Shown here: in pieces, positions 5,478 to 36,648 of the stretch | How positions within the stretch are numbered: position 1 is the first letter of the stretch | Layout of the letters: the number at the start of each line of letters is the position of its first letter | Assembly: GCA_949358305.1 (NCBI GenBank) | Contig: OX442314.1 | Location: forward strand, 4,030,001 to 4,094,000 | DNA from: Strigamia acuminata | Taxonomy: Eukaryota | Reading direction: 5' to 3' | Length of the DNA stretch: 64,000 nucleotides | Made by a program: the position numbers and the translations under genes | The notes under the pieces: model-generated | Seen by the model: the letters and a program-made list of their open reading frames with translations, nothing else | Told to the model about the DNA's origin: nothing | Database searches by the model: none

Positions 5478-7029
5478 TGTGACGATTCTACTTTTGGCTG
5501 ATTTATTAGCCATTTTAAGAGATAAATCGGTCGGAACAAGACGTTGTTAAGACTAACAACAACCTAACCGAGATAAGCTACGAAATGTGCGCTAAATGAA
5601 TAAAACAACGAAATGATATAAACTTACGGTTTTACTTGCTTGTTTCTACGAATACAAATGGTTCGGGGTTCTGGATACGTGTAAGCGGCGGCTACACTGG
5701 TTGAGGATCCGGGCGATGCACGAAGGGTACGGCTGACTTTGCGGCATCGTCACAAATAACGCTACGGAGACGTATTTGGTCCGCAGCTCGAATATCTAAT
5801 AATACGAAGAGTCCTTCGTATGGAAAGGAATATTCTGTAGAATATTCCAGGTCAAATAAATACAAAGTGATTAGTGGAATACAACAAATGAATTGTTGTA
5901 TAAATATTAATGGGGCGGGGACAGTCACGACAGTCGACAGGACCGTCGCGGGAGTTGTTGAGGCTCCATCCGCCAGCATGCCTTACGACGACAAGATCTC
6001 GTGATCAGGCGCCGAGTATTTGTTTGTACGCTTTACATCGCTATCGGTGGTACCAACCACCGGGTAAACATTCCTATGGATTTACCAATTCCAGGATTAC
6101 CAATACCTGAGTAATTGTTTAACGAAATGTCTTCACGGACAATTCTCACGGGCTACCAACCCGGCGTAGTGTGCCTTTAAATATGCCATTCACCGACCAC
6201 TAAAGTACGGAAGGACCTATGATACGCAATTCGCCCTGGAATAGCATTTGTCCGTGTTTGTTTCGTGCTCGGGTGGGACCTCCCGCACACACGCTCTTGG
6301 CAGAGCGTCTGACCCTCGTCCGAGGAATCGCTCAGATAGATGCGACTATCACCGATCATATAGTTTGACATTTATTTAACGGGTTAGTCAATCCCGTGCA
6401 TGAGCATTATACTATGCCACCGTATGAAATCCTACTGTCCCTTAGAACAGCTGGCTAACACTACGGGGCCATTTCATGTTGTTAACATGTCTACAAGGTT
6501 AGCCTTCCCCGATGGGCCCTACAACAAGCAATAACGAGATAGTAAGTCTACATATCCATTGAGAGCTGAGGAGGCCTGATGTGTCGATAAGAAAGAGAGA
6601 AATCAAACGATAACCAACAATACATACAAACAATATTCAAATCAAGCCAGGGCCTGGTAGAAAACCAGAGCTTATATAGTTCCTGAGAACAATCAGATTG
6701 GCGACAGCCAATCAGGTGCCTGGATCGACGGATTCGTGGATCACTAGTCCGGACCTAATAGAGACCGGGGTTCGGACCTAATATGGAATTGGGTCCAGAA
6801 GGGTCCGATTGGTCCCCTTCAACAAGTAAATATAAAATATAATATTGATTCGGCAGAATCAATATTTAAGTAAATAATACTTTATCATGTTTAATAAATA
6901 ATTTATATTTATTCACGTCATTCCGACAATTAATTATAATTCTCGCAATTCATTCGAAAATGCGCGCTTTTAGTCAAATAGCGCCATCTGGCGGCAAATC
7001 GGAAATTATACGGTTTTATAACCGTCACA
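5478..7029 (-). repeat. 3' LTR of element A
   Basis: Direct repeat of 12574-14125; TATA-like ctatataag on - at ~6671-6680. Confidence 0.95.
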
Positions 7030-7997
7030 CATCCCCCGGTGGCAAACATAAGAGTTTACTAACTCTATATTTGTCATCGGAAAGATTACTTCTTAAGTTT
7101 AAGATGTTCACCCTGATTTTTATTGAATTATTTATAATCCAATACCTGCTCTATTAATTTTAGTCAAAATTAATCACACTAATTTCTTTCAGAAACTCAT
7201 AACACAATTGACTAATTGGCTTTCCTGTACAATACACCTCCTAGTTGCAAGGCAACGGGATGGATTCTTCGGAACATGTCATTCATATTCGTCATCCACT
7301 CGATTTCGATTGAAATCTTACTCTACCGATCTAATTCAAACATGAACATGTTTATTAGAGGATTTGTAACAACTCTTCGAATTTTGACTTAATAAAATCA
7401 AAACATAATTCTTTTGCTGCTTAATATCCCAAGCCTCGACCGAGACTTGAATTTTACTTTAACTGGGGACCTCTTACACAAATAACTAGACTATTGTCTA
7501 ATTACTACAAATATTTATTTGTAGTCGTGTAACCTAACTCGTATTTTATTTTCTTCTAGAAAACAATACCAATTTATTCTACGAGCGTAAAATATATTTG
7601 TTCCGAAATAAAACTTCTTTTATTTATCATCATTTCTAGAATCCTAGAATTTTGTATCCGATTTAAACTATCCCCCGGTGGTGTGATTTATTAATCACTA
7701 CACCGCTTAAAGTATTTATCTAAATACCACACAAGTTTTTATTAAAAACTTTTTATTCTATTGAATAAATTCAACTTTTATCAACCGAAGCTTTATTCAA
7801 AGTTCCGGTGATCGAGATTTATTTAAAACCTTTTGAGTTTGGTGGGATAATATTTTATCCCCCGGATCTAGCATTTTGCTTCAGACAAATTAGAAACGTT
7901 TGTTTCAAGTTTATCCACTTTTATTAAGAATTTCAGTTATGAAACTCGTAAGACTGTTTTGTAATTAATTACTAAATAGTCTTTTATAGGTTCATCT

Positions 7998-9179
7998 TTA
8001 GATTTCACCAAATAAAGCTTCATTGTTACGGATTACCTTATAAATTTTCTTTAAACAATGAGTTGGCACTCTTTGTTTGCGTAACAGATAGGTACTATCT
8101 CTAGTGAGATTGTCAAAAAATAGTGCAACCGCACTTTTGGAGGTTAAATAACCTTGTAAATTCCACATTCTATAGAATCGGTATATGAAGGAATACAGAC
8201 TCTCTGAGTCTCGTTGTTTTGTTAAAATCAACTGTACTGTTCTTTCTAAGTGTGTTGTTACAAATTGTTCGCGGAACAGGTATTCGAATATTTTCCAATT
8301 GAAAATTTTATGTTGATTTTCACAAAACCAATTCTGAGTAAAGTGTAACAAATAGCTTGGAACACATTCGTGAACCATTTTTTGTAGCGGCATATAATTA
8401 ATAGATGCCACCTTCCTGATAAATGCGAGGAGTAGCTCGCTCTCGTCGGCTTTCAGTGAATACTTTTGGAAAGTACTCTGCCCCTTTTGCAACAATGTAT
8501 ACACACTTTTCACCATGTTAATGTATTCATCTGAAGACAATCCAAAGTGAGGTGATCGCGAACGCGATCTAAAATTATTTTGCAAAACACTACGATCGCG
8601 CACATAATTAGCAATTCGTACGTTCTTGTTTGTTACATTAGTAACTACATCTTGAGTATCGTTCAAGGATGATTCGGGTGAAGGTAAATGTCTATGAGCC
8701 CAAACGGGATCAAGATTTGCTTTCTGTCGATACCGACTAATTGGTGTCGAAGGAGTCGAACCTAATCGTGGATCGTTAGATCCATAATTAGCGGAAGAAC
8801 GAGATCTAGATCTAGATCCTTTAAAAGGTAGTTTATTTAACATAACAAAATCCACCATTTCGACGATTGATCGGAATTGGTTTGGATTCAAACCATAATC
8901 AGTACAAAATAAAAGTCCTGTCGGACCTAAATGTGATCCATCCGATGGAAGATTTCCTTCCACAGGAGAATTTAGTTCAGTCTGTACCAAGTTAGGATCT
9001 ATAATTCTGATCGGTTCCGTTGTTTCATTCGAAACACTATTACCGACCACGTGGTTTACTATTTCCTCTACTAATCCAGTTTCGTTAGAAACTGGCACAA
9101 ATCCGGTTAAACTTATTCTACCGGTCAAACAAGTTCTTTCCTTACCGCGTGTGTTCATCGAGTGCTGGTTACTAGTCAT
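7998..9179 (-). CDS. gag: Gag-like protein of element A (N-terminal module + Ser/Arg linker + capsid, no zinc knuckle), ~393 aa
   Basis: FCTDYGLNPNQFRSIVE aligns with B YCRLYNLNRADFKTITE; MVHECVPSYL...NWKIFEYLFREQF...QRDSESLYSFIYRF aligns with B capsid MVKRGIPTYL...DWKTFEKMFLAEF...QGPEEPLYTFLLRF. Confidence 0.8.
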   Translation of the reverse strand: MTSNQHSMNTRGKERTCLTGRISLTGFVPVSNETGLVEEIVNHVVGNSVSNETTEPIRIIDPNLVQTELNSPVEGNLPSDGSHLGPTGLLFCTDYGLNPNQFRSIVEMVDFVMLNKLPFKGSRSRSRSSANYGSNDPRLGSTPSTPISRYRQKANLDPVWAHRHLPSPESSLNDTQDVVTNVTNKNVRIANYVRDRSVLQNNFRSRSRSPHFGLSSDEYINMVKSVYTLLQKGQSTFQKYSLKADESELLLAFIRKVASINYMPLQKMVHECVPSYLLHFTQNWFCENQHKIFNWKIFEYLFREQFVTTHLERTVQLILTKQRDSESLYSFIYRFYRMWNLQGYLTSKSAVALFFDNLTRDSTYLLRKQRVPTHCLKKIYKVIRNNEALFGEI

Positions 9180-12100
9180 AACTAAAATTGAAAAATAAAA
9201 TTTCCGAAGTCTGAGAGATAACGATGAAGTCGTAACGTTCAGGAAGGTTGCAAACGAAGCAGTGGTTACACTATTTCGAATGGAAGTATGGGTACTTCGA
9301 TACACCTCTCTGATTGGTTGATTGTCAAACGTCAGTCTCGCGAGACTCTAATCTCATCTGAGATTGGTAGAAATCACTATTTTCGTGGAACCTAAATCTT
9401 GTCAGATTTCAGGGTTATGACGTAGTCACCAAATAAAATGGATACTTTTCCAAGTATTTTAAAATATCACCAATTTTATTAATAAAAATGGTAACCTTTA
9501 CGGGATTTTTAAAGTATTAAAAACCACAATTTCACAAGTACGTTGAATCGATTGAATCGACGGCTTTGCTGAATTCCGTTCTTTATTTGAATTTATCAAA
9601 TAATAAATTTCAGTTTTAACTAAAACTTACTAACTTGATTTTTACAAAATCTAGTAATTTTTTTACTTTTTATCCCATAAAAGCACGTTGAATCATTTGA
9701 TTCGGTAGCTTTACGGCAAGTAACGAGGAATTTCGAACGCAATTCCGTGAAAAAAGTGAAGGAATGCACATTTTTTAATGTATTTGTCTCTGTTAAGGCG
9801 GTATACAAGGTTTCTTGTATCTCCTCCCCCTCCGTTTCTTCAGAATATTCTTTAGAATCTTCTGAAAAACTGGATTCGAACATTATTTAAATATTCTGAC
9901 ATTATTAGGCATAAATAATTATATGCTTTCTAGTTTATTCAAACTTTCAAACAAGATTAGGTATTTATACCTAACCGATCGTTTTGACGTTGTCTACGAA
10001 TTCTTTCGATGGACGTCATGTCGTTTTTCTACGTGTTCGATTGAAACTACGGTAAATCGATGAATTGGGGGCGGACACGAACGTATCAAAGTCAGCTTAA
10101 TCTTCATCCCCCGGTGGTAAAATTTTAAACTTTACCACGTGGTAAATTTAATATTTCACCGTAAAATCCATTTTTTCAAATGAAAAAAAATTGTAATGGA
10201 AAGTTCCTTATTTACGTTGTAAATATCCTGGAAATTTCATCCTTTATTTCGAGAATGAAGAATAAAGTTTTATTCCTTTTCTACACCAAAATCGTTCGAT
10301 TTTGCAATTCGCAAAATTTACTATTTTCTTTAGAAAATAAGAATTCAAAGAATGCAACGTTCTTTCTTGTAATGTTAATTACAAGATTAATGTAAACATG
10401 ATTAAAATTTGGATAAATTTCAACTGAAATTTTTCCAGTTAATCGTATCATTCGATTTATTTTAATAAACCGAAATAAATATTACTCTTATTTTTAGGTA
10501 AATCCAGATTTATTTAGTCAAATAAACCGAATTCACGATGATTGAATTGTTAGGCAACAATTCAGGAAAGTACGCCTGGAAACCTGGCGGCTTCTCGGTA
10601 AAACTCCGCGATTCTGTTGCTAGGCAACACAGCTGCGAAAATGGCTTCGCCGGAATTGAACATTTGAACGATCTTCAATTCCTTTTAAAATTCGGATTTC
10701 AACATTTTAAAATCAGGGTTTGATTGTACAATACAAATGTAAAGATAATCAGGTATGTGTCTATTTTGTAAATAAACCTTTAACACGAATAAACCTATTC
10801 TTTCAATTTTACCAACTTGTCTTGTTTTTATTTTTCAAAATAAATTTAGGTTAAAATATTAATAAGTTTTTTAACTTAATGTGAAATCCCAAACGGAATT
10901 TTGTGGTTTAGGTTATTTTATGTGAAAACAACCGATAAAACTGGAATTAGAATTCGAATTCCTTCGGGGTTGAATCTTCATTTAAGCCTGACCGCGTGTT
11001 TTATTGTAACTACGACGGCAAATTATCGTTGTCCAGACGGACAAAACAACGTCGAATTCGGATTGGATTCTCCAATTCCCGTGATAGGATTTTTAGGCCT
11101 TACCACATGGTAAAATAATTATTTTATGCCATCGTTCGAATTTTCTACCGAAAATACATTTATAAGTGAATACACTCATCGTTCTTTAGGATTTCAATCA
11201 CAAGAACAAAATTGGATAAATAAACTTCGTACGAAACTTACTTTAAATTCGAACTCGAATTCTTTTTTGGGAAATTAAACTTTCTCGTTTAAGCCTGTCC
11301 GCGCGTATGATCGTAACGGTGACGATTAGACGTTCCGTGAACGGACAAAACAACGATAAGTTCGGATTAGAATTCAAACATTCCGTGGTGAGATTTTTAG
11401 GCCTCGCCACGTGGTAAAATAATCATTTTACTTGACGTTCAATTTTCCGGTGGAAAATCTGGATAAAAGTGAATTATACTTTTCGTTCTTTACGCAAATG
11501 TTTGATTTTCCTGCAGAAAAACACAATGCAAGTGAATTACACTTATCATGAGATTTATTACTTCGAATAAACTGGATTCTCGACATTTTTTAAATCGTTT
11601 AGCAACAATTTGTGAAAGCACGTTAAATCGTTCAATTTGGGTAGCTTTCCCGTAAAACACCGTTGCTAGGCAATCGTAGCAGCAAAAGTCTTTGCTAAGT
11701 TCGAATGGGATTCTATTCGCGAAATTGGTTTTAAAGACTTAAAACCAAAAGGTGATTAACACATTTGTAAATTAGAATGTAAATCAGGTATGTAGAACAA
11801 TTTATCGAAATAAAATATCTTTTATTCCATTGAATCAACTTTTCCTTCGTTTTATTTAATCAAATAAAATTAGGCCTTGAAATATAAAAACATTCTTTAT
11901 TTGAAATCTCAAACAGAATTAAACTTGGTTGTTTTAATCAAAACAACCGGCGAATACTGGAATTCATTTTTGAATTTCCTTCGAGAAATGTTCGAACTTT
12001 ATGTATTAAGCCCAACCACGTGGTTTCTCGGATCGACGACGGCGAAACGACGTTACCCGGGCGGACGTAACAGCGACAAGTTCGGGCAAGATTTTCAAAC

Positions 12101-12573
12101 TTTCGTGGTAGGTTTTTTAGGCCTGACCACGCGGTAAAATTATCATTTTACACAAATATATAATTTTTTCTTCAGAAAAACAAATTAAAGGGAATACAAT
12201 CGTTGTTCTTGTGATTTTAATCACAAAACAACATTCAATACATTTAGTAAAGATATAAATTTCGTTCGAAACTTATTTTACAAGAAATTTTGTCGTAAGA
12301 CTAAATTATCCAAACTCCACTTTTCACGAGCACGATTTCCAAATTCATTCGAATAAGAATTGTAGTCTATCGTCGGTAGAACCGCTTGTGGCGGTCCTAA
12401 TGAAATTCCTAGAAAAGTTTCACGAGGAGAACTGTAAAACAAACATTAATTTTACCGTAAAAAATTTCATTTGAAATTTTAACACCGTAAGCACATTTCC
12501 TAAATTCTCATAAACACACACAACTCAAAATTCACTTGAATTTTTGCAGCCTTATCTCGGTAGAACCTCCACT

Positions 12574-14125
12574 TGTGACGATTCTACTTTTGGCTGATTT
12601 ATTAGCCATTTTAAGAGATAAATCGGTCGGAACAAGACGTTGTTAAGACTAACAACAACCTAACCGAGATAAGCTACGAAATGTGCGCTAAATGAATAAA
12701 ACAACGAAATGATATAAACTTACGGTTTTACTTGCTTGTTTCTACGAATACAAATGGTTCGGGGTTCTGGATACGTGTAAGCGGCGGCTACACTGGTTGA
12801 GGATCCGGGCGATGCACGAAGGGTACGGCTGACTTTGCGGCATCGTCACAAATAACGCTACGGAGACGTATTTGGTCCGCAGCTCGAATATCTAATAATA
12901 CGAAGAGTCCTTCGTATGGAAAGGAATATTCTGTAGAATATTCCAGGTCAAATAAATACAAAGTGATTAGTGGAATACAACAAATGAATTGTTGTATAAA
13001 TATTAATGGGGCGGGGACAGTCACGACAGTCGACAGGACCGTCGCGGGAGTTGTTGAGGCTCCATCCGCCAGCATGCCTTACGACGACAAGATCTCGTGA
13101 TCAGGCGCCGAGTATTTGTTTGTACGCTTTACATCGCTATCGGTGGTACCAACCACCGGGTAAACATTCCTATGGATTTACCAATTCCAGGATTACCAAT
13201 ACCTGAGTAATTGTTTAACGAAATGTCTTCACGGACAATTCTCACGGGCTACCAACCCGGCGTAGTGTGCCTTTAAATATGCCATTCACCGACCACTAAA
13301 GTACGGAAGGACCTATGATACGCAATTCGCCCTGGAATAGCATTTGTCCGTGTTTGTTTCGTGCTCGGGTGGGACCTCCCGCACACACGCTCTTGGCAGA
13401 GCGTCTGACCCTCGTCCGAGGAATCGCTCAGATAGATGCGACTATCACCGATCATATAGTTTGACATTTATTTAACGGGTTAGTCAATCCCGTGCATGAG
13501 CATTATACTATGCCACCGTATGAAATCCTACTGTCCCTTAGAACAGCTGGCTAACACTACGGGGCCATTTCATGTTGTTAACATGTCTACAAGGTTAGCC
13601 TTCCCCGATGGGCCCTACAACAAGCAATAACGAGATAGTAAGTCTACATATCCATTGAGAGCTGAGGAGGCCTGATGTGTCGATAAGAAAGAGAGAAATC
13701 AAACGATAACCAACAATACATACAAACAATATTCAAATCAAGCCAGGGCCTGGTAGAAAACCAGAGCTTATATAGTTCCTGAGAACAATCAGATTGGCGA
13801 CAGCCAATCAGGTGCCTGGATCGACGGATTCGTGGATCACTAGTCCGGACCTAATAGAGACCGGGGTTCGGACCTAATATGGAATTGGGTCCAGAAGGGT
13901 CCGATTGGTCCCCTTCAACAAGTAAATATAAAATATAATATTGATTCGGCAGAATCAATATTTAAGTAAATAATACTTTATCATGTTTAATAAATAATTT
14001 ATATTTATTCACGTCATTCCGACAATTAATTATAATTCTCGCAATTCATTCGAAAATGCGCGCTTTTAGTCAAATAGCGCCATCTGGCGGCAAATCGGAA
14101 ATTATACGGTTTTATAACCGTCACA
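12574..14125 (-). repeat. 5' LTR of element A
   Basis: Followed on - by AG and the tRNA-Gln PBS. Confidence 0.95.
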
Positions 14126-14961
14126 CCTTGTCTGTTTTGAATTCTAAAAAAAAAATATTTAAAAAAAAAATTAATTTTAGTTGTGACGTGACGTGACTTG
14201 ACGGTTTATTACGTTTGATTCTGTCCTCCATTTCGATGAAGAGCTTTTCTTTGTAGAAGAGTTCGTCGACTTTTTTCGGCATGCGTTTGAGGTCGCTCAT
14301 CGTCTTTTTTGTCCGCACGGATTCCTTCCTCTTTTTGGCTGATGGTTCTGCCAAGTTAGTCGAATTGCTGTTTTAGGTTGTGACAAATTAATATGGCTAT
14401 AAATGCCTATTGTGCCATTATGACGGTAATTTTACTGTATTTGCTTGTAAAACTGATAAGAGTCCTGAATAAAGTTATTTATGATGTTTCAGAAGCAAAG
14501 TTGTTATATTAATAAATATTAATTAACATTACTTCGTGATATCAAAGTATCACGGCCAAAAATACAAGATTTCGTCTGCTAAAACAGCATTCGTCAATGC
14601 GGTATGTCGCCACTAGAAGGCGCTATCGCAAATCAGCGGTAAATTCGAAATACGGAATTAAATGAATAACATTCAATATATTAAATAAGTATTTAATATA
14701 TTGGTTTAGATTATTTAACTTGACAATAATATAAAGTTATATTATTGTATTGAAAGATTGGAAGAAAGAATTGGTCACATTCTTGGAAATGTGACCATGC
14801 GGATTAAAGGATTAAAATGTGTAACTTGGGAATGTGTCCCCGGTATCCATTTCCGGTCCTGAGTATCCAGATCCGGTTTTGCTAAAGGATTAGCATAATC
14901 TGAAGTTGCATCCCCGTATCCACTTCCTGCGGTACGAGATTGGTGGAACTTAATCCCACCA

Positions 14962-15000
14962 AGTATAAAACTCCCTGACAACAGGAAGTTAGTCAGTTCT
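14962..15000 (+). promoter_or_regulatory. Putative LTR core promoter (TATA box + Inr)
   Basis: TATAAAA followed ~30 nt later by TCAGTT; an equivalent TATA is present in the A and C LTRs. Confidence 0.55.
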
Positions 15001-15207
15001 TGATTTCTGGTTATTTGGTATGTTCCGCATGTCAAATAACTGTTTCTTACTCAGGGCATGGGCCTACCGGTCCATGCATAGCATGGCTCTGCTGAGCCAT
15101 GCAACCCCCGTCAACTGAAGGCGAAGTTCGGACTGTTAATGTTTCCGTCAAACGGTCTTGCCGAGGAGAAAGCCTCCCGCATAAGTATCCTCGTGGTCGG
15201 ACAATAG

Positions 15208-15408
15208 AATCACGTGTGATACCAAAGTATTTAGTAACCGTTAGTAGCACTGTTACTGAAAGAGATTGACTCCATCACTTGATGGTGCCAAAGCAGTCTG
15301 CATGCAAAACATGCAGTTACCGCCAGTAGCACTATGTGTTTGGGAAAGTTATATCTCTTCGGTGATGGTGCCAAAGCAGTCTACTTATGAGTAGTATCTC
15401 AGGTGATT
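15208..15408 (+). ncRNA. Structured cis-acting RNA element in the LTR transcribed region (two-fold symmetric internal-loop hairpin)
   Basis: Two CAAAGCAGT / TWACCNYNAGTA internal loops with covarying stems relative to element C; copies at ~35598-35798 (+), 25205-25410 (-) and 32709-32914 (-). Confidence 0.65.
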
Positions 15409-16263
15409 AATTCTGTTGTGCAGAACTGCGGGCTATATCCCCCTGAATACCAGTGCCGTCTCTCACCGCACTGTTAGTTAGGGCACGCGCGATACTGTTC
15501 TGCTCAGCAAGGCGAACTTTGACGGCAATTGTGTGTTGCGATGTTTAACCTTTATTATATTTTGTAGTTGATAAATACACCTTAATTGTTTAAACTTGGC
15601 AACAAGTTAACAACCGAAGTAAGTCACGAGACTTATTTCACTGTATGACGAATCAAATTCGTAACAATAAATTGAATACAATTTATTGAGTTAATTTATT
15701 AAACTCACAACATCGCGAATTAAATATAATTCGCAAGCGGAACCTTGGCGAATAAATGACTTCATTTATTCATTACCAATTTCCAACCCTAGTTGTGGCG
15801 GTGCACATGAGTCAACCGCACCTCTCGGATCGAACCAAACAGCATTACACGGACCATTACACGATACGAACCAGGAACGTGAAGGAACCAGTTCCACGAT
15901 TACGAAGCGCCGACGGAAGCCGCGAGGACACAGCCAGCCCGGCTACGCGTAGATGACATCTTTTAACTCGGTCGAGCGGGCATTTTGCCGTTCCCGAACC
16001 CCGGATCACCAATAACCGTAATCATATTATTTTAGGGCTGTTTTACAGCCAATTTCATGTATAGTTTAACTTGTATTTAACTTGCCAAATGTCGGCATTA
16101 GAATTTGTATAACTTTTAGGATTGATTATATTGTTTAGTAACAATAAATGTCACGTTTTGAGAAACTCTGTTGTCTTTATTATCTCGTATTTTAATCACT
16201 TATTCACGCGACTTATACCCGGTACTATCATGCGATAGGAGTTGTGGTCGTCACCGTCACACG

Positions 16264-16281
16264 TGGAGGTTCCACCGAGAT
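16264..16281 (+). promoter_or_regulatory. Primer binding site complementary to the tRNA-Gln 3' end
   Basis: TGGAGGTTCCACCGAGAT is the reverse complement of ATCTCGGTGGAACCTCCA, the metazoan tRNA-Gln 3' end; 2 nt after the LTR. Confidence 0.88.
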
Positions 16282-18665: not shown

Positions 18666-18690
18666 TAGAGGGGGTTACCGAAAACCCCCT
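18656..18690 (+). promoter_or_regulatory. -1 programmed ribosomal frameshift signal (gag-pol)
   Basis: A AAA AAC heptamer, 6-nt spacer, stem AGGGGGTT/AACCCCCT; the -1 frame is open into the pol ORF. Confidence 0.85.
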
Positions 18691-26600: not shown

Positions 26601-29600
26601 ATATGCCTAGTCAGATGTATCGCTATAAATATACAATAAATAGCTTTTAGATGATAAGAGTTGACAATTAAGAAATCATAATTGTCCCCCTTAATTGTCA
26701 TGACCGGAGTCACTTGGTATTCTTTGTACAATTGACTAATTTAATTAAACTAGTTGTCTTAATAATGTAGCATTACTTTTCAAAATTTTGTTAATTCTAA
26801 CTTTTATATTTTGTCCCCCTTTTCTTTAGAAGAGAGGTCATGATTTTTAGAAGAGGATTTTCTGTTTACACTATAATCGGGGAATCTTTGTGTATCATAT
26901 CATGTTAATCAACATGATTCTTTGCTAAATATTGAGCTCGCATATTTGCAAATTTCCGAGATCTCTCAGCCTGCTGTACTGATTTTTTTTCGACGTTTTT
27001 TCTTTGGGCAGTTACACACAGTGTACTCACTTGGCAGTGTAAATGACCGTGACGACCCAACTTTTTGTTTTAGGTCATCTCTGGAAAACCATACATGAAT
27101 GGGACCCTCATTGGAAAACCATACGTGGAAAGGACCCATATTTGGAATTGTGAAATCCCGCAACAAACGAGGGGATCTATATTTGACTCTAAGTCGTGGA
27201 ACTGATGATTGGAAACCTGGGTTTTCAGTCAGTTTTTGAACATGTTGGTTTGTACTTGAAGTTTCTTCATCACCAGCTGGACTTGGTGACCGAAAACGCT
27301 TTTTTGAAGTTCTTAATTCCTCTCGTTGAGATGAATTATTCTGGATATTGCAGGGTTGCTTTCCAGACGCAAATTGTTGTATCTCCGTCAGATTGACGAC
27401 TGGGACGGGTTTTAGTCGTTGGTTACGGTATTGATTTCGAAATACGAATTGTTGCGCTTCGTTTATATTTTTAAATTCAGCTGAATTTAACTGGTATTGT
27501 TTACAATACTGTTCGAATTGATACCGGATCTCCCGTGGGTTAGTCAAAAAACTTTCTTTTTTAGGTTTAAAATCATTCTCATTATCGTGTTGGTAATACT
27601 TTTTCAAGGGAAAAGTTTGCTTGACCTTTTTTCGATTTGAAATGGGCGTTAGGTAGAATTGTCTTGGCTGGGGACTCTTCTTGGTAGACAAATCATACGT
27701 CCGCAAACATGAGTTTGTGATCGGCGATCGGGCACGTTGTTGTACGTTATTTGACTGCAAATGTTTGTTTGGAGTCCGAATATCTTTCCTTTGCGTTGAT
27801 ATTGGTGGCCCAAAACTTTTGTTTACGGTTCCCAATTCTTTTGATAGCGGTAGGTTAATCGACAGATTAAGGCTAGCCACATATCGTTGTGCTTCAGCTG
27901 GATTAGCATATCGAACTGAAATTAGCTGATCTCGATTGTAAACGAGTTTTAATTTGTTCTGAACAACCGACTGGTTAGTTAACGAACTCTCTGGACGAGA
28001 ATTATTAGGTTTATAATTCTCTTCCCCCTTATCTACCGAATTAGGTGGTTTAAACTTTTCTAACTTAGATCCCCTACTGGATGTTTGAAACATAGTATGA
28101 GAATCTTGATTCACTAAGTTTCGGCTGTATGTTTGTGGATTCCGTACTGGATCTTGATGTGAAGATTGAGATTGGGTACGGTCTCGCCAGTTCCTAGCTT
28201 TTACATAGTCTGAAGCTTCGATTATATTTTTAAACTTGGTTTTATCCAGTCCATGACGATTACAATACAGAGTAAAATGATCGGGAATCTTTTCTGTTTG
28301 ATCGCCAAGTGGTACAGAACTTAAATTTAAGTTTGTCTGCTTATTATTTCCTTTTGGATCGATCATATTCAATGGTTTTTGAGCCATAAAAAAATTCAAA
28401 ATCTGACGATTTTAATTCTTTAATTTATAAAGAAGACGAATATAATACACTTTTCAACAAGAAACACTTCTAAACTTTACTTTTGACAAAATAAAATTAA
28501 ACTTCGCGTTTGTTTGACACGTGTTAGCTTTTGCAGGTTACACGGCACACAAAATTCGAATCGTGACTGAAATCGGGACGGCGTGGTCAAGATGACTCTG
28601 GAACACGTCTTCTGGTCTGGTCTGGATGCGAATGATCAGTATCTGATCTGGTCCTCCTTTAATAGCAGGGGGCTGGGGATCCCTAGATCTCCCAACTTCT
28701 GATTGGCGGATGTTAGTGTCGGCCAATGGTATAAAGGACGTTACATCTATTTAGTAGTTCTCTACTAAGTCCGTTCCCTTCGAGATTCAATTTTACCGAT
28801 AAAATAAAATTCCTTCGGGAAGACATTCGTAAAATATTGTATTTTTCAAATGAAAATAAAATAAACTTACTTCAATCTTCTTGAACTTTGGGATTTTTAC
28901 CAATCCAAATAATTAAATAACTTTTCTTCAAAAAATATTTTTCTTTGATTATTCCGTTTAGTGTGTAATATCATTACAACCACAGTTTTAATAAAGTTTT
29001 CTCAAACTCTCAATTTTTCTTATTCTTATTCAATTATCGTTCAAATAATCATTCCTTTGTAATTGAAATCTATTTTCGATTCCCAACATTGTGTATTCAT
29101 TTCCAATAGGAAGAATAATTTGACCAAGTCTTTACTTTTTCGGGTTTAAATTCCATTTTTCGAGTGTGAAAAAAATAAATTTTCACCATCCATCTCCCCC
29201 TTTTTTAACAAATTTTTTTAACAAATAAAAATTCGTTAAAATTCTTTAAATTTGTTTTGCGAGAAAAATTATCTAATTCTCTAATCTTCCAAAAGAAAAT
29301 ATTCGAAATTTTACTTTAAACGATAAAGTTATTGGTACAAATGTGTACTTGTTTTTCGGGAGAAAACTATTCGACAATCCTTTAGACTTTTGGGTAAAAA
29401 TTATTCATCAAATCTTTCTTTTTTGATGACAATTGCTTTGATTTTTCGAAAGAAAATATCTAGCTAAATTCCACTTTTCCTGAGCGGACAATTGTTTTCA
29501 CAATTAGTTATTCCTTTGCGATATTTACGAAGGACGTGTCTTTGATTATTCGTTTTAATAATTTTCGTCCCCCTTATCTCTAATAACGAGATGTTTTTGC

Positions 29601-32600
29601 AGAGATCTTTTATCTTTTGAATGAAAGAATATTTAAATCTCAATTGTCGTAAATACCTTCATCTGCTGCAGCATTTCCTCAATTTGAACTTTTCAAATGA
29701 AAAGACAAATCTGGAGAACTTTCACTGTCAAACTTCTATTCCTATCGCGCCAAAATTCGTAATTCACTGGTTTGGAATTCCGTATAACACGTGACACAAT
29801 AACAGTATCGATGTCACAATTAAGCAGTTTACTACTCGGTCCGCGCGAGGACATGTAAATTACTTTTTTCCGATAAAAATAATTTTTCTTTGAAAAATAT
29901 TTGAAATTGATTTTTCACAACTACTTTTGAATGAAATAAAATGAAGTTATTCCAACTTTTCGTTAATTGCTCACACATAACATTCCCTTTACTGTGGGAT
30001 TTGCATCGAAATTCCATTTTTAAAGAACCTTTCTTTTACTTATCGCAAATAAAACATATTCAATCGTTTTTCTGATTAAACTTTAACACGTAAATTACGA
30101 ACGAAATATATGATGACATTCCATTAACCTTTAGGAAAATTGACTAAATTCTTAATTTTTAGAGAAAAATAATGTATCTAGAATCTTTCCTTTTCCGAAT
30201 AAAATCTATGTTCAAAATAGAAGATAAATCTTGTGCAATTCTTAGTTTTTTCGAATGGAAAAATACAACTTTTCATCAGCGGTGATTTATTTGATTTTTC
30301 CGAAAGAAAAATAATTACTTTGAAACTTATTTTCTTCGTTTAAATCAGCTATCTGATTTTAAAGCTTCAATCCAATTAAAAAATATTCGCTCCGTAAATA
30401 TTTCATGTGGCAAAGTTCATAGCCACAAATGGATTTGTTATTCCGGTTTTAAGAAATCATGTGGGAAAATGTCCGATTAGATTACTAAAAATATTCGTTG
30501 TTTTTCAAACAGCTAAATTTCATTTAGAAATTCTCAAAATTTGGGAGACCCAAATATCGTTGGAAACTTAAAACACTGTTAAATTTCCGAAAGGAAAGAT
30601 TGAATGAAATCCTTTTACTTTTCCGAGGGAAAGCGTTTATCGTGATTCGTAACTTTCAATGTAAAAAATACTATTCTACGTGGTCGGCAACTTCATTCGC
30701 CGCCATTTTATATTTTCTTAATTTCCATTGTCCCGAAGGAAAAAATGTACTTTTTGTGAAAATAGTTAATTCCTTCAAATAAAGGTAATATTCATTTCGA
30801 TTTGCAAATCTTTTCTGCGAAATGGAGTGTGTTGTTTTTCTCCAACAACTAAATTATCTTTGGTACCGATGGCAGTGGAAAAATTAGTTCGCGACACTTA
30901 AATAAATCTCTACGAACCTTCTGTAACATTTCTCCGCTGTCTTTTATCTGTTGTCCGCCATAATTTCCAAGCATTCGTTCGCACCTTGCGTTGAAGGTTT
31001 GAGTAGCTTCCCTGCTGCGTTTGATACGGAGATCGACGCGTATTGCTATGGCGCGTGGTCGCTGGCTATCGGTGTCGACGTACAGTTACAAGAAACTTAA
31101 TTTCTTGTAAATATTTCCAAATAGTTGCGGTGTTTTCTTCGTTTTAACTTTTCAGGTGGAAAGATAAATTCGTAAGAAGTCCGCCTTCTAAACTTGTATG
31201 TTTTTAGCTTTTCGAAATAAAACAAACTTCGAAAAAAATATCTGTATTCTTATTTCACTCGAAACTTTTTTTTGATTTCTTATTTAAAATACTTCGTATT
31301 CCTTAAATTGTCGAACGAAAATAGTAAAGAGAGTTCACTAAACGTTTCCATTTCGTCAGTTTAACTTTTCACATGAAAATATAAACTGAAAATCTATTTG
31401 TCTGTTTTAACTAAAATTTTTTTGTTAATATCGGATTCAAGATTCGCTTTTGCAATTCGATCGAATTAATTTGCAACCTATTTCAGTGATCGTGTGATAG
31501 GTCTATAACTTCCGAAATTCCTAGTTAAAGGACTGTTTTGGTGTTTCTCAAGAAAATAAACATGGTTTGAAACTTGTCTGTTTTTTAACTAAATCTTTTA
31601 GTTAAATATTTATCTCAAAATTCACTTTTACAATTCTATCGAATTTAATTGCAACCTAATCTCGGTGGGACCTCCACGTGTGAGATTAGGTGGTAGTCTT
31701 TGAAATCCCTAAAATCTTCAAACGAAAATAATGAAGGAAAATCTACTACGTATTTCTATTTCATCAGTTTAACTTCTTCACATGGAAATATAAACTGAAA
31801 ATTTAATCTGTCTATTTTTAACTTAAATCTTTTAGTTAAATATTTATCTCCAATATTCACTGTTGCAATTCAATCGAATTTAATTGCAACCTAATCTCGG
31901 TGGGACCTCCACGTGTGACGGTGACGACCACAACTCCCATTTAACAATGGTACCGGGAAGAGATCGCAATAAATAAACAGTGAATACAATACGAGATAAA
32001 TACAAGACAGTTTATTGTTGGCAAACAATATGGATGAGCTAAATTATACATAGGACTAATGCCGACATTTGGCAAGTTAAATCAGCTATTAAACTATACA
32101 AAGAATTGGCCAACTGGCCCTAGAATAATATCACTACGGGTCTGGAATATGGGAGCGGTTTCCCCATCGCTCGACCTGATTATAGATGTCATCTTAAGCC
32201 GGATGGCTGTGTCCTGGAGTCCGATACGGCTTCGCTGGTTTCCTTGGTTCGCTGTGTGAACTATCGCACGTCGATAAATCGAATGATCTGAGCATTGCGG
32301 TTGACTTTGTCTGCACCGCCACAACTTTGGGAGGATATTGGTGTAAGTAAATGTATTCATTTACTTATCAATATTCCACTTATGAATTATATTTAATTCA
32401 TATCGTTGTGAATTCTTATTTAGATATTTCGGGAATAAGTTGTCGTCAACTTATCGGTTATATTGAGTTCAATATGAGATTAAGTCTTCTGACTTGATTT
32501 TGGTCCAACTGGTTGTCGAGTTTAAGTTTTGCTGTTATAAATAAAATGAAGATTAAGCTTCCCGTCGCAACACACAATTGCCATCGATTAGAATATACGC

Positions 32601-34630
32601 CTTGCCATGCAGAACGGTATCAAGCGTCCCCGGCGTCGCAGCACGGTCGTCCATCGAGTGGTTGACGGTACCACGTACACAGGGGTCGATAGCTCGCGGC
32701 TCCGCACAGCAGTTTTATCTCTCGCGGTACTAATAATAGACCGACTGCTTTGGCATCGAATACCATGAGAATCAGCTTGCCAAACACTTGGTGCTACTCG
32801 TGGTTACTGTAAAACAGACTGCTTTGGCACCATCAGGTGAAGGAACCGATTCTCAACAATACCGATGCTACTCGTGGTAACGGAATACGTTCATACCGAA
32901 AAAGACAACTTGGTCCTGTCCGGAGGATACTGAATTGCACAACGGCGGGTTCTCCTTCGGCGTCGCAACCGTAGACTGTAACATTTATGCAACATAATAA
33001 TCCCAGCACTTCGACTTCAATTGCCGGCGGTGGCATGATTCTGTAGAATCATGCAACGGTTCTTTGCGAATAAATCAACAAAGAACCAAAAGGTTTTTTA
33101 CGTGAACAACGAATCATATTTCATAAGTAACAATACCAAACAGAAAATAATCAAACAGAGCTGCAGAATGGCCGGTTGTTTGGGTTTATATAACCTGACT
33201 GGATTAAGGATTAATCCAGTTATCCAATTGGAACATGGGTTCCACGAATCCCTCCAATCCCGTATCACCGGAAGTGGATACGGAGGAACAATGTGCTAAT
33301 TCTCACCACAACCGGAACTGGATACCCAGGACCGGAAATGGATCCACCAATCAGATCTATTGGTTGATCGATTGATCACCAAATGTCCTGTCCCGCAGAA
33401 AATGGAAGTTACATTGTATTTAACATCACAAGACATTAATATATCTTTATATTAATGTTCACAAAGCTTCGTTTCATTCTAGTAAATATAGTTTTATATT
33501 TATTTACATGTTTTATATTCATATCTTGAATTTGCCGCTAAATCGTAATCGCGCCATCTTGTGGCAACATTGCGCATTGACAAATGCGGTTTTAGCAGAC
33601 GACTCTTCGTGATTCGGCCGGAATCCTTTGATATCAAGTAGGAATGAGTGTTTATTCTTAATAAACGAACATCTTTGTATTTGAAACATCATAAATAACT
33701 TTATTCCAGACATTTATCAGTTTTACACAGAATATCTTCGAGATATCATGATAATGGCGCAACAGCGCTTCTTTCTAAGAAAATAGGCATTTATAGCCAT
33801 TGTAAACCGTCACAAACCCCAAGTTTGTTTCATTCGTGGTTAAAGGGTTGTTCGATCCAGTACCCCGAAAATGGGCAACCTGCCACCTTTGTAAAGCTTT
33901 ACTATCTAACGATGGCAAAGCTGTATACGAGGATCCCGAATTTATGAATTCGCGAAGAACGCCCCTTGGCCTTCAAATGGGTTTGGAAAAAATGCCAAGT
34001 GTTGTCTGCGTAGATAATGCGACTCAAACGGACGAAGCCGCATTAGTCCCCATGCCAAACGTTGTGGAACACGGAATTTCGAACGAGTTCTTAATTGAAC
34101 CTTACCAAGTTCCTCCGAACACCAAGATAGGACAGTTATTTGTTTGGGAGGTTGAATACTACTACCCCATCGTGGCTCGACTTGCAATTATCATTTCTCG
34201 TCAATTGGTTACGGGCCTACCCGATCAAATAACAGTAGGGTATGTGACCAGGATCATGCAAATGATCTTGAATCCACGTCGCGTTGAGGGCTTCAACATT
34301 TTGGAGCACCTTTGGAATTTGCTCGTGGGAAAAATCGCAGCTGAGATGAAAAATCAAATATGCGAAGGCTGGATTTTGGTTTTGCCCCCGGTGATTGACA
34401 TCTACGAAAATCTCAAGAAAATGATCGATGAAGAAGACGGATCGACTGATCAGCCTGAAGCAGGGGATAAAGCACCCGAGACTCCCATCGCCACGGAAGT
34501 TGTTGCGACCGCTGCATTCTTCATAGATCGGCAACCGGAAGAACCTCTTCCCGCCAAGAAACGTGGCAAAAGCTCCTCTTCGAAGGATAGGCAAAAGCCC
34601 GCCACGGAGACCGAAAAAGGTCAAGAATAA
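23611..34630 (+). CDS. ORF3 of element B (536 aa when rejoined: 23611-24409 + 33819-34630), Cys-rich putative nuclear protein, interrupted by element C
   Basis: Removing C and one AACC TSD restores the frame (...KIQPWN-PKFVSFVVKG...); CPFCFGVG, CGNCLGSK and CHLC motifs; basic KKRR and KKRG clusters. Confidence 0.8.
24410..26310 (-). repeat. 3' LTR of element C
   Basis: Direct repeat of 31914-33814. Confidence 0.95.
26966..28387 (-). CDS. Element C protein (~473 aa): two copies of the Gag N-terminal module in basic low-complexity sequence, no capsid
   Basis: IPDHFTLYCNRHGLDKTKFKNIIEASDYV and FEQYCKQYQLNSAEFKNINEAQQFV both match B IPDDLTEYCRLYNLNRADFKTITEAVNHV; C-terminal PKKKRRKK. Confidence 0.75.
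   Translation of the reverse strand: MAQKPLNMIDPKGNNKQTNLNLSSVPLGDQTEKIPDHFTLYCNRHGLDKTKFKNIIEASDYVKARNWRDRTQSQSSHQDPVRNPQTYSRNLVNQDSHTMFQTSSRGSKLEKFKPPNSVDKGEENYKPNNSRPESSLTNQSVVQNKLKLVYNRDQLISVRYANPAEAQRYVASLNLSINLPLSKELGTVNKSFGPPISTQRKDIRTPNKHLQSNNVQQRARSPITNSCLRTYDLSTKKSPQPRQFYLTPISNRKKVKQTFPLKKYYQHDNENDFKPKKESFLTNPREIRYQFEQYCKQYQLNSAEFKNINEAQQFVFRNQYRNQRLKPVPVVNLTEIQQFASGKQPCNIQNNSSQREELRTSKKRFRSPSPAGDEETSSTNQHVQKLTENPGFQSSVPRLRVKYRSPRLLRDFTIPNMGPFHVWFSNEGPIHVWFSRDDLKQKVGSSRSFTLPSEYTVCNCPKKKRRKKISTAG
31914..33814 (-). repeat. 5' LTR of element C
   Basis: Followed on - by CG and the PBS. Confidence 0.95.
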
Positions 34631-34994
34631 GCGGTATTTCGAATTTAAACAATTAGCAGTTTGTTTGTGTGTTCTGTGATAAAAAGATATAATATGTAAC
34701 CGGAAAATTCTTTAATTAAGATTTTTGTAAGAAGTGCTTTTTCCGTTATACGAAAATGACTTCATGTTTATTGTTTTAATAATAACCAAATTATTTTTAT
34801 AACCGTCTCTAAAAAGAGAAAATAAAAACATTTTTGAGCATCCTAAGGATAAGAACATGTTTATTAAAAACACTCGTGGGCCTTATAAGTATTGGAAATA
34901 AAATATTTATTAATATGGATAAATTTGGCACAAATGATATTCCTAAAGAATAACATAAAATATAAGAGTATATGTTTAGTTATTAAGGGGGATG

Positions 34995-36648
34995 TGTGAC
35001 AAATTAGCAATAGATGGCGCCACTAGTACTAGCGGCAAATTCAACCTCGAGCTTACTATTTCCCATATAAATAGTTCACAAACATATTATTATGTTTGAT
35101 ACGACCAAATGTGATTCACATCGATAATATAAAGGTATATTATCAATACTTAAGAAGATAAAAATAGGCGTTACTGCTTTATCACCGATACATGACGAGG
35201 AACACGGTTTTGAATGTATTTCCGTTCTGTGTATCCATTTCCTGTCCCCGGTATCCAGTTCCGGTTTATGCTAAAAGATTAACATAATCCCAATTTGCAT
35301 CTCCGTATCCACTTCCTGCGATACGAGATTGGTGGAACCTAATCCCACCGAGTATAAAACTCCCTGACAACAGGAAGTTAAGTTAGTTCTTGATTTCTGG
35401 TTATTTGGTATGTTCCGCATGTCAAATAACTGTTTCTTACTCAGGGCATGGGCCTACCGGTCCATGCATAGCATGGCTCTGCTGAGCCATGCAACCCCCG
35501 TCAACTGAAGGCGAAGTTCGGACTGTTAATGTTTCCGTCAAACGGTCTTGCCGAGGAGAAAGCCTCCCGCATAAGTATCCTCGTGGTCGGACAATAGAAT
35601 CACGTGTGATACCAAAGTATTTAGTAACCGTTAGTAGCACTGTTACTGAAAGAGATTGACTCCATCACTTGATGGTGCCAAAGCAGTCTGCATGCAAAAC
35701 ATGCAGTTACCGCCAGTAGCACTATGTGTTTGGGAAAGTTATATCTCTTCAGTGATGGTGCCAAAGCAGTCTACTTATGAGTAGTATCTCAGGTGATTAA
35801 TTCTGTTGTGCAGAACTGCGGGCTATATCCCCCTGAATACCAGTGCCGTCTCTCACCGCACTGTTAGTTAGGGCACGCGCGATACTGTTCTGCTCAGCAA
35901 GGCGAACTTTGACGGCAATTGTGTGTTGCGATGTTTAACCTTTATATTTTGTAGTTGATAAATACACCTTAATTGTTTAAACTTGGCAACAAGTTAACAA
36001 CCGAAGTAAGTCACGAGACTTATTTCACTGTATGACGAATCAAATTCGTAACAATAAATTGAATACAATTTATTGAGTTAATTTATTAAACTCACAACAT
36101 CGCGAATTAAATATAATTCGCAAGCGGAACCTTGGCGAATAAATGACTTCATTTATTCATTACCAATTTCCAACCCTAGTTGTGGCGGTGCACATGAGTC
36201 AACCGCACCTCTCGGATCGAACCAAACAGCATTACACGGACCATTACACGATACGAACCAGGAACGTGAAGGAACCAGTTCCACGATTACGAAGCGCCGA
36301 CGGAAGCCGCGAGGACACAGCCAGCCCGGCTACGCGTAGATGACATCTTTTAACTCGGTCGAGCGGGCATTTTGCCGTTCCCGAACCCCGGATCACCAAT
36401 AACCGTAATCATATTATTTTAGGGCTGTTTTACAGCCAATTTCATGTATAGTTTAACTTGTATTTAACTTGCCAAATGTCGGCATTAGAATTTGTATAAC
36501 TTTTAGGATTGATTATATTGTTTAGTAACAATAAATGTCACGTTTTGAGAAACTCTGTTGTCTTTATTATCTCGTATTTTAATCACTTATTCACGCGACT
36601 TATACCCGGTACTATCATGCGATAGGAGTTGTGGTCGTCACCGTCACA
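34995..36648 (+). repeat. 3' LTR of element B (1654 bp; U3 differs from the 5' LTR)
   Basis: Preceded by the PPT; followed by TSD AGGT. Confidence 0.93.

What the first reader, a model, noticed from the sequence alone, without database searches (positions are those of the whole stretch)
5478..36648. Three-tier helper/satellite retroelement system: gag-pol-ORF3 (B), capsid-only (A), Gag-N-module-only (C)
Seen: all three share TGTGAC/GTCACA termini, a tRNA-Gln PBS, a GGGGGATG PPT, 4-bp TSDs, very large LTRs and a ~27-aa Gag N-terminal module. A and C have no pol, yet their LTR pairs look identical (recent insertion) and each keeps one long, strongly diverged ORF open behind a ~3.4-3.5 kb non-coding leader. 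Known: gag-only non-autonomous elements (TR-GAG) and LARDs are described mainly in plants. Inference: A and C are long-lived satellite lineages mobilised by B-like Pol, not fresh deletion products.
Basis: partly seen in the sequence, partly recalled or inferred. Interest (0 to 1): 0.75.

Follow-up and report, generated by a model that had tools for sequence, protein, structure and literature searches.

The report
Two satellite retrotransposons keeping Gag fragments
Two enzyme-less, multi-copy retrotransposons, one nested in and one beside a full-size element in an animal genome, each keep only a piece of the particle (gag) gene; the one that keeps no capsid at all likely borrows the machinery of the full-size element's family, while the other's helper is likely a related family not seen here.

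Summary
The anatomy is confirmed, with corrections. A (5478-14125) and C (24410-33814) have 100% identical LTR pairs, 4-bp TSDs, a tRNA-Gln PBS, a PPT, no pol and one open ORF each. A encodes the Gag N-module, a linker and an Arc-like capsid. C encodes two N-modules and no capsid. B spans 14379-36648, has C inserted in its third gene, mismatched U3 regions and a gag split over two frames. Contigs of public runs from two studies show all three as multi-copy families with no near-identical pol-bearing parent. C:B depth is about 2.4 in one run and 0.27 in the other. C keeps B's integrase end, PBS, PPT and a leader block almost unchanged against 62% LTR identity, so it is a B-lineage satellite. 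A shares no alignable LTR or leader with B and belongs to a larger LTR family, so a single 'three-tier' system is not shown. Gag-only satellites are already known in animals (zebrafish Bik-1/2, chicken ENS-1). A capsid-less, Gag-module-only satellite was not found in my searches. This scan earlier noted a loosely similar fungal satellite. New variant of a known kind.

The parts
5478..14125 (-). Element A, 8648 bp, pol-less LTR retrotransposon; TSD CCTT at 5474-5477 and 14126-14129
5478..7029 (-). A 3' LTR, 1552 bp, identical to the 5' LTR
7030..7042 (-). A polypurine tract region (CCACCGGGGGATG)
7998..9158 (-). A ORF, 386 aa from the second ATG (393 aa from 9179): N-module, RS/SP-rich linker, bilobed capsid; stops at the end of the capsid, no zinc knuckle
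9159..12573 (-). A leader, 3415 nt, AT-rich, with internal imperfect duplications and an extra copy of the PPT motif at about 10105-10117
12554..12571 (-). A primer-binding site, tRNA-Gln type, one mismatch
12574..14125 (-). A 5' LTR
14379..36648 (+). Element B, Ty3/gypsy-type, about 12.9 kb without the nested C; TSD AGGT at 14375-14378 and 36649-36652
14379..16261 (+). B 5' LTR, 1883 bp; outer U3 (first ~460 bp) is C-like and differs from the 3' LTR
16264..16281 (+). B primer-binding site, tRNA-Gln1 type
16723..16836 (+). Leader block shared with C (82%); candidate packaging signal (inferred)
17072..17704 (+). B ORF1a, 210 aa: N-module and basic RS-rich tail
17628..18665 (+). B ORF1b, +1 frame relative to ORF1a, with its own AUG at 17628: capsid and CCHC nucleocapsid
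18656..18690 (+). Predicted -1 frameshift signal: A_AAA_AAC, 6-nt spacer, 8-bp hairpin
18641..23023 (+). B pol, 1460 codons open: protease, RT, RNase H, integrase
23611..24409 (+). B ORF3, N-terminal part, cut by the insertion of C; two CxxC motifs, no membrane segment
24410..33814 (-). Element C, 9405 bp, pol-less and capsid-less, nested in B ORF3; TSD AACC at 24406-24409 and 33815-33818
24410..26310 (-). C 3' LTR, 1901 bp, identical to the 5' LTR, 62% to B 5' LTR
26311..26326 (-). C polypurine tract region; 22 nt across the PPT-LTR junction identical to B
26966..28387 (-). C ORF, 473 aa, net charge +40: two Gag N-modules (about aa 19-63 and 291-327), each followed by a low-complexity tail; the last five codons differ in other copies
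28524..28637 (-). C copy of the leader block shared with B
28388..31913 (-). C leader, 3526 nt: PBS at 31894-31911, a second PBS with LTR-end copy at 31659-31676, about 2.8 kb not found in B, then about 650 nt homologous to B's leader
31914..33814 (-). C 5' LTR
33815..34630 (+). B ORF3, C-terminal part; one CxxC motif, no Pfam match
34987..34994 (+). B polypurine tract
34995..36648 (+). B 3' LTR, 1654 bp

Best explanation
A and C are multi-copy, recently inserted, pol-less LTR retrotransposon families that likely copy themselves with borrowed Pol: C likely uses the B lineage (B or a close sister family), and A likely uses a related autonomous family that is not in this window. Shown for C: its LTR, PBS, PPT, pre-gag leader and ORF all derive from the B lineage, and the signals that RT and integrase read are the best-conserved parts. 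Inferred for C: its RNA is packaged in helper particles, primed by tRNA-Gln, reverse-transcribed and integrated by helper Pol. Also inferred: its basic two-module protein is kept because translating it acts in cis to deliver C RNA to helper Gag assembly sites, as the IAP IDelta1 fusion protein is reported to do. Shown for A: an open module-linker-capsid ORF that ends before the nucleocapsid, family-wide. Inferred for A: this protein co-assembles with helper Gag/Gag-Pol and favours A RNA. The two satellites are parallel parasites of one Ty3/gypsy clade, not a chain in which C depends on A.
For: LTR pairs identical, TSDs intact. No pol remnants, 0 of 120 queries. Single long contigs at high depth with few differences: A 1130-1372 in X2 and 306-376 in X3; B 2007-4257 and 620-1020; C 8982-9972 and 207-247; the lowest listed variant contigs are at 117-162 in X2 and 31 in X3. 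One X3 contig (7855-8632, depth 376) spans A's stop codon, and summed depth over the capsid bins is no higher than over A's 3' UTR bin, so the truncation is family-wide. C depth in X2 is flat (7951-9972 at seven places from 3' UTR to leader), so no abundant parent of 88% identity or more shares only part of C. C versus B: 62% LTR identity, but a 33-nt identical run over the U5 end and PBS, 22 identical nt over the PPT junction and an 82% leader block (score 223 against shuffle maximum 65). ORF openness needs selection: simulated neutral substitution at 0.1 per site leaves 0.3% (C) and 1.1% (A) of ORFs open, and none of 1500 at 0.2. A's domain folds as an Arc/Ty3-type capsid (pLDDT 82.8; best PDB hits Arc and dArc1, E 6e-4). 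B-family pol is under purifying selection (21 of 26 listed differences synonymous). Precedent for the cis effect: PMC6466679, passages.
Against: No whole genome was available, so copies were not counted. Contig depth is only a rough proxy, the kind of X1 and X2 is not on record, and either may be the window's own sample. A parent at one to three copies would not have been seen. A second pol family about 82% identical to B occurs at similar depth (4922 in X2, 666 in X3) and could be C's real helper or parent. No dN/dS was possible: only 3 listed variants in C's ORF (1 synonymous, 2 not) and 1 in A's. Translation of ORFs behind about 4.6-4.8 kb of 5' sequence with 55-58 upstream ATGs is unexplained. 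The leader block shows no unusual RNA structure (z 0.14 and 0.02). The cis role of the proteins is inferred only.
Confidence: 0.62

Rival explanations
1. One reading: B-family Pol mobilises both A and C, as one helper with two tiers of satellite.
For: All three share terminal TGTGAC/GTCACA, a 2-nt LTR-PBS spacer, tRNA-Gln PBS, G5-ATG PPT and 4-bp TSD. A and C share the first 10 nt of U3. A's capsid is closer to B's (E 1e-15) than to any of 24 outside Gags and groups with it at 94/87 support.
Against: A's LTR and leader do not align with B's (score 57 against shuffle maximum 63; no LTR hit). Sequence like A's LTR and pre-gag region is far more abundant than A's capsid region (at 9162, depth 5013 in X3 against 376 for the capsid contig), which points to a separate larger family. 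Nothing links C to A's capsid.
Confidence: 0.2
2. A and/or C are recent deletion or recombination products of their own autonomous parents, which exist at low copy or were lost; the ORFs are open because they were selected in the parent until lately.
For: Low-copy parents are invisible to depth. A sister pol family about 82% identical to B exists. A-type LTR sequence is much more abundant than A's interior. The Bik-1 authors raise the same possibility for their element (PMC12067270, section 5).
Against: Both carry 2.6-2.8 kb more leader than B, with old internal duplications (67-78% identity). C has a duplicated, diverged module (26% identity between copies) that a simple deletion does not give. 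C copies in X3 differ by about 1% from the window and keep the same layout. A's capsid branch is 2.29 against 0.49 for B.
Confidence: 0.13
3. The truncated Gags are kept as restriction or interference factors (like Ty1 p22) or for a host function (like Arc or Bik Gag), and mobility is incidental.
For: A's protein has the Arc layout: N-domain, linker, capsid, no nucleocapsid. Truncated Gag can be a trans-dominant inhibitor (PMC4599808, start of abstract). Gag-only Bik elements have host roles (PMC12067270, passages).
Against: Both are full LTR elements that inserted very recently and are multi-copy; C depth relative to B varies about nine-fold between runs, which fits a selfish burst. An inhibitor of the helper would also suppress the satellite.
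Confidence: 0.05

Closest known systems
TR-GAG elements of plants (PMC4350172; abstract start and passages read)
   Same: LTR-PBS-single gag ORF-PPT-LTR, no pol, multi-copy, no matching autonomous element found, trans-mobilisation proposed.
   Different: TR-GAGs are under 4 kb with LTRs of about 485 bp and a full Gag with zinc knuckle. A is 8.6 kb, Ty3/gypsy-type and lacks the nucleocapsid. C is 9.4 kb and has no capsid at all.
Zebrafish BHIKHARI Bik-1/Bik-2 and chicken ENS-1 (PMC12067270; passages and section 5 read)
   Same: Animal LTR families that encode only Gag, lack pol, are recently active and polymorphic between strains, and have an unidentified helper.
   Different: Those are endogenous retrovirus relatives with a full capsid-bearing Gag. 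Here the lineage is Ty3/gypsy, a candidate helper lineage is in hand for C, and C lacks the capsid.
Mouse IAP IDelta1 and ETn/MusD (PMC6466679; passages read)
   Same: Non-autonomous forms out-transpose their helpers. IDelta1 keeps a truncated Gag-derived ORF that acts in cis. ETn copy number differs two- to three-fold between strains.
   Different: IDelta1 is a simple internal deletion close to its helper, and ETn is non-coding. C is 38% diverged from B in the LTR and keeps a duplicated N-module ORF.
MaLR/ERVL (PMC5538554; passages read; the gag-like internal ORF of MaLR is recalled, from no call)
   Same: Long-lived non-autonomous LTR lineage that relies on an autonomous relative.
   Different: Mammalian, short LTRs, ERVL helper.
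LARDs (definition recalled; named in PMC4350172 passages) and soybean SNARE/SARE LTR swapping (Du et al. 2010; title only, seen in a reference list; paper not held)
   Same: Large size, long LTRs, long non-coding interior. LTR exchange between partners would resemble B's C-like 5' U3.
   Different: LARDs are described as non-coding, whereas A and C keep long open ORFs.
Arc/dArc domesticated Gag (PDB 7r24, 6s7y)
   Same: N-domain, linker, bilobed capsid, no pol; A's protein has a similar size.
   Different: A is a mobile multi-copy LTR element, not a fixed host gene.

Membership tests
Ty3/gypsy LTR retrotransposon (element B) | pol order protease-RT-RNase H-integrase | tested here: met
   protease ~173-276 (weak), RT 419-576, RNase H 641-778, integrase 975-1145
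Ty3/gypsy LTR retrotransposon (element B) | TG...CA LTRs, PBS, PPT, TSD, gag with capsid and CCHC knuckle | tested here: met
Errantivirus-like (env-bearing) gypsy element (element B) | third ORF is a membrane envelope protein | tested here: not met
   highest 19-residue hydropathy 0.81 and 1.27 in the two ORF3 parts, basic N-terminus, no env family in Pfam
Osvaldo/mdg3-type clade of Ty3/gypsy (name and traits recalled) | RT phylogeny with named reference elements | not testable with these tools
   no named reference elements among the hits; capsid hits resemble long CCHC Gags
TR-GAG (element A) | LTRs, PBS, PPT and one Gag-capsid ORF without pol domains | tested here: met
TR-GAG (element A) | at least two copies | tested here: met
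   contig depth about ten times that of the lowest variant contigs in two studies; a depth proxy, not a count
TR-GAG (element A) | length under 4 kb | tested here: not met
   8648 bp
TR-GAG (element C) | ORF with Gag capsid similarity | tested here: not met
   B's and A's capsid give no tblastn hit anywhere in C at E 0.05; no Pfam gag match
LARD (definition recalled) | large interior without coding capacity | tested here: not met
   386-aa and 473-aa ORFs are open
LARD (definition recalled) | conserved structured RNA in the interior | tested here: inconclusive
   shared leader block z 0.14 and 0.02; only two sequences
BHIKHARI/ENS-1 gag-only endogenous retroviruses | gag-only, pol-less, recently inserted LTR family in an animal | tested here: met
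   element A
BHIKHARI/ENS-1 gag-only endogenous retroviruses | retroviral (lokiretrovirus or ERVL-related) ancestry | tested here: not met
   A's capsid groups with B's Ty3/gypsy Gag, best folds Arc/dArc
Domesticated Gag gene (Arc type) | single fixed locus without LTRs | tested here: not met
   identical LTRs, TSD, multi-copy depth
Satellite of element B | satellite RNA packaged and copied by B-family proteins | not testable with these tools
   needs particle RNA/cDNA data; only shared cis signals were tested

The most novel reading that the evidence does not exclude
The B lineage makes its Gag in two pieces by design: a free N-module 'adaptor' protein (ORF1a) and a separately made capsid-nucleocapsid (ORF1b). 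Satellite C has kept and duplicated only the adaptor, using it as a bivalent, cis-acting hijacking protein that loads C RNA into helper particles, so that C can outnumber its helper. This would be a retrotransposon counterpart of the particle-redirecting proteins of phage satellites. A does the same with a fast-evolving capsid that lacks a nucleocapsid.
Probability: 0.2. Interest if true: 0.82.

Novelty: new variant of a known kind. Interest (0 to 1): 0.55.

Why it matters
Why pol-less LTR elements keep a gag ORF is an open question for TR-GAGs and Bik-type elements, and their helpers are mostly unidentified. Here a satellite (C) keeps only the non-capsid N-terminal part of Gag, so it cannot be supplying particles, and it sits beside a traceable helper lineage. 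That separates 'makes its own capsid' from 'acts in cis on its own RNA'. The conserved islands between C and B map the cis signals of this clade. The roughly nine-fold difference in C:B depth between two runs suggests an ongoing satellite burst that can be followed in populations.

Tried and rejected
No whole genome is held. Word-based protein searches found no relative of A's ORF (2341 candidates) and no longer fused relative of B ORF1a (351 candidates); both are weak evidence. PDB sequence search with A: nothing meaningful. A module HMM found no copy in the 235 fetched proteins (best E 0.21). The module model (pLDDT 72, helix-short helix-helix) had best Z 2.8 against 48,161 chains, so no fold can be named. 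LTR-end/PBS patterns gave 0 matches in metagenome and viral contigs, and a Pol alignment gave no locus in metagenomes. No RNA holder was listed, which says nothing on expression. Rfam and ARAGORN found nothing. A contig joint between B 18536 and C 29684 (depth 857, X2 only, 37-nt side) looked like a B/C recombinant, but there is no homology at the site and it is unreplicated; not used. Skips of 99 and 66 nt inside the A and C ORFs are multiples of three, but the letters between are not known; not used. The stable RNA fold at B's ORF1a/1b switch (z -4.2) was picked after the fact; in a sliding control 9 of 147 windows scored below -3 and the two windows covering it ranked 10-11, so it is only a weak hint. 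3' UTRs of A, B and C share nothing above shuffles. ORF3 as env was rejected. Run X6 covered 14 of 30 bins at low depth and was not used. Literature searches showed no arthropod gag-only or Gag-N-module-only LTR family; subscription journals and Repbase entries are outside this library. No supplementary files were opened; TE catalogues in supplements could hold such families.


Full report
1. What is there. A self-comparison of the window and inspection of the junctions give three LTR elements. A lies on the minus strand at 5478-14125 with two identical 1552-bp LTRs and TSD CCTT. C lies on the minus strand at 24410-33814 with two identical 1901-bp LTRs and TSD AACC. B lies on the plus strand at 14379-36648 with TSD AGGT. 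C is inserted inside B's third gene: the two TSD copies lie in the same codon phase, so the two parts belong to one gene of about 540 codons that is broken there. A and B sit 253 bp apart in one copy of a tandem array of RING-IBR ubiquitin-ligase genes (IBR E 3e-8, CUE E 1e-3), and other copies in the window show the empty sites. The PBS of B and C equal the 18-nt sequences given for tRNA-Gln1 and tRNA-Gln3 in PMC1592299 (passages); A has one mismatch. The closest named Pol relative is from the centipede Strigamia maritima (52% over half of the query), so the host is probably an arthropod (inference).

2. B. Pol is open over 1460 codons in the Ty3/gypsy order. It is entered by a predicted -1 frameshift: A_AAA_AAC, 6-nt spacer and an 8-bp hairpin (3 of 200 shuffles fold as well). 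Differences between the window copy and the main contigs of the family are mostly synonymous: 21 of 26 listed in pol, 5 of 9 in ORF1a, 5 of 8 in ORF3 (these are the best-supported rows only, a small part of all differences). So all three genes are under purifying selection in the family. ORF3 is not an envelope gene and has no Pfam match.

B has two oddities. First, its LTRs differ in the outer U3: the first ~460 bp of the 5' LTR resemble C's U3, the next 150 bp differ by about 10%, and the last ~1260 bp differ by one substitution and one 3-nt gap. With the TSD intact, this suggests a recombinant between two co-packaged genomes, or later gene conversion (inference). Second, gag is split: ORF1a (17072-17704) holds the N-module and a basic RS-rich tail, and ORF1b, in the +1 frame with its own AUG at 17628, holds capsid and zinc knuckle. 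The main X2 contig has a stop in the 1b frame at 17574, so the switch lies between about 17577 and 17667. No family-wide length difference was listed there in either lay, although weaker B rows were; only 12 of 201 and 12 of 48 rows were shown. Against a programmed split: A and an outside relative (P0128) have linker and capsid in one frame. A paralogous segment at the start of pol (17638-17666 equals 18741-18769 at 28 of 29 nt) is read in one frame. The window also has a private one-letter difference in an A-run elsewhere (26983). I put a family-wide split at about 70%.

3. A. Its ORF is N-module, RS/SP-rich linker and capsid, and it stops where B's capsid ends (28% identity, E 1e-15). The predicted domain (pLDDT 82.8, 24 sequences) matches Arc and dArc1 capsids best (E 6e-4). 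In a tree of 25 capsids (one of 26 had no BLAST hit and was left out), A groups with B and P0128 at 94/87 on a long branch (2.29 against 0.49); the tool warns that such placement is unsure. A's LTR, leader and 3' UTR do not align with B or C beyond the termini and the PBS-proximal bases. The A-versus-C leader score of 106 against shuffle maximum 87 is a diffuse AT-rich alignment and is not taken as homology. An old A-like LTR fragment (about 70%) lies at 46780-47360. In the runs, sequence like A's LTR and pre-gag region is far deeper than A's capsid region. A is therefore one member of a larger LTR family whose main member has a different interior; that member may be A's helper.

4. C. Its ORF holds two copies of the N-module (38% and 46% local identity to B ORF1a), each followed by a low-complexity basic tail, net charge +40. 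There is no capsid or pol similarity anywhere in C. It reads as a duplicated ORF1a. All contigs of both runs lack one letter at 26983, so the last five codons and the stop shown in the window are not shared by the family. The C LTR is 62% identical to B's, yet the longest identical run (33 nt) covers the U5 end and PBS, the PPT junction is identical over 22 nt, and the last ~650 nt of the leader are homologous to B's leader with an 82% core. About 2.8 kb of extra sequence and a second PBS lie between. This is the pattern expected if selection acts on the cis signals that a B-lineage Pol and Gag read.

5. Copy number and parents. Logan contigs of three runs from two studies hold the elements; A and B were laid on four runs, B and C on two. 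Depth of single long contigs: A 3100-3587 (X1), 1130-1372 (X2), 306-376 (X3). B 2007-4257 (X2), 620-1020 (X3). C 8982-9972 (X2), 207-247 (X3). The lowest variant contigs listed lie at 117-162 (X2) and 31 (X3). If these are single loci, A has about 10 copies, B 20-30, and C about 65 in X2 and about 7 in X3. The baseline is assumed and the tool warns that depth is no copy count. The ratios do not need the baseline: A:B is about 0.3-0.4 in both runs, C:B about 2.4 against 0.27. X1 or X2 may be the window's own sample, and their kind is not on record. A contig spanning A's stop at full A depth, and flat depth along C, argue against abundant near-identical pol-bearing parents. A parent at one to three copies is not excluded. 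A second pol family about 82% identical to B is present at comparable depth and may be C's direct helper.

6. Selection on the ORFs. Under simulated neutral substitution alone, 0.3% of C ORFs and 1.1% of A ORFs stay open at 0.1 changes per site, and none of 1500 at 0.2. C and B differ by 38% in the LTR, so the ORFs have been maintained for most of that time, in the satellite or in a parent. Variation within A and C is too low for dN/dS.

7. Mechanism. Shown: structure, recency, multi-copy state, B-lineage origin of C, capsid fold and family-wide truncation of A. Inferred: transcription from the LTR, packaging in helper particles through the conserved leader block, tRNA-Gln priming, plus-strand priming at the PPT and integration with a 4-bp TSD by helper Pol. 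Also inferred: since C cannot build a particle, its protein most likely acts in cis, bringing its own RNA to helper Gag through a basic RNA-binding tail and the Gag module, as reported for IAP IDelta1 (PMC6466679, passages). How the ORFs are translated behind 55-58 upstream ATGs is open (B has 25); splicing or internal initiation is needed in all three. The added leader brings A and C to 8.6 and 9.4 kb against 12.9 kb for B, which may reflect a size constraint on packaging (speculation).

8. Comparison and verdict. Gag-only pol-less families are known in plants (TR-GAG, PMC4350172) and in animals (Bik-1, Bik-2, ENS-1; PMC12067270), and long-lived non-autonomous lineages include MaLR (PMC5538554) and ETn. 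A works like these, but fails TR-GAG on size and the Bik group on ancestry. C fails TR-GAG (no capsid) and LARD (it codes). Six literature searches showed no capsid-less, Gag-N-module-only LTR satellite. New variant of a known kind, interest 0.55.

Noticed in passing
window 3182-5477, 14126-14378, 36649-42180 and 48047-61650: Tandem array of about five diverged copies (80-90% identical) of an intron-containing RING-IBR ubiquitin-ligase gene with a CUE-like domain; A and B inserted 253 bp apart into one copy.
   Followed up: partly
window 14379-14990 versus 34995-35380: B's two LTRs differ in the outer U3 although the TSD is intact; the 5' U3 is the C-like type. Possible trace of co-packaging of two subfamilies or of gene conversion.
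   Followed up: partly
window 17538-17704: B gag is split over two frames. Candidate +1 re-pairing sites CCC_C at 17603 and UUU_CGA at 17675 (the second motif is recalled from RNA viruses), and an AUG in good context at 17628 followed 14 nt later by a hairpin.
   Followed up: partly
window 17638-17666 and 18741-18769: 29-nt direct repeat (28/29) that encodes TLNKLVIQD at the start of the capsid and near the start of pol; possibly a duplicated protease site or RNA signal.
   Followed up: partly
window 23611-24409 and 33815-34630: B ORF3 is a non-envelope protein of about 540 aa with three CxxC motifs and basic clusters, no Pfam match, and mostly synonymous variation in its family; possibly a nuclear accessory protein.
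   Followed up: partly
window about 10105-10117 and 7670-7681: A carries two extra copies of its PPT motif, one near the middle of the element (position 4009 of 8648), like a central PPT.
   Followed up: partly
window 31298-31918: C has a duplicated LTR-end plus PBS (92% over 110 bp) and further degenerate copies of the PBS-proximal unit.
   Followed up: partly
window 46780-47360: Old truncated LTR about 70% identical to the U3 end of A's LTR.
   Followed up: partly
window 19156-20166 (contigs): A second abundant pol family about 82% identical to B in RT is present in the same organism.
   Followed up: no
window 8770-9929 and 12574-14125: Depth far above A's capsid region: another, more abundant family shares A's LTR and pre-gag sequence.
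   Followed up: no
window 18536 and 29684: One X2 contig (depth 857) joins B gag to the C leader without local homology; unreplicated.
   Followed up: partly
window 1-324 and 63447-63927: Perfect 20-bp tandem array (16 copies) and a 41-bp array (12 copies).
   Followed up: no
window 43615-43760: Degenerate integrase-like remnant (weak tblastn hit to B pol, E 0.01).
   Followed up: no
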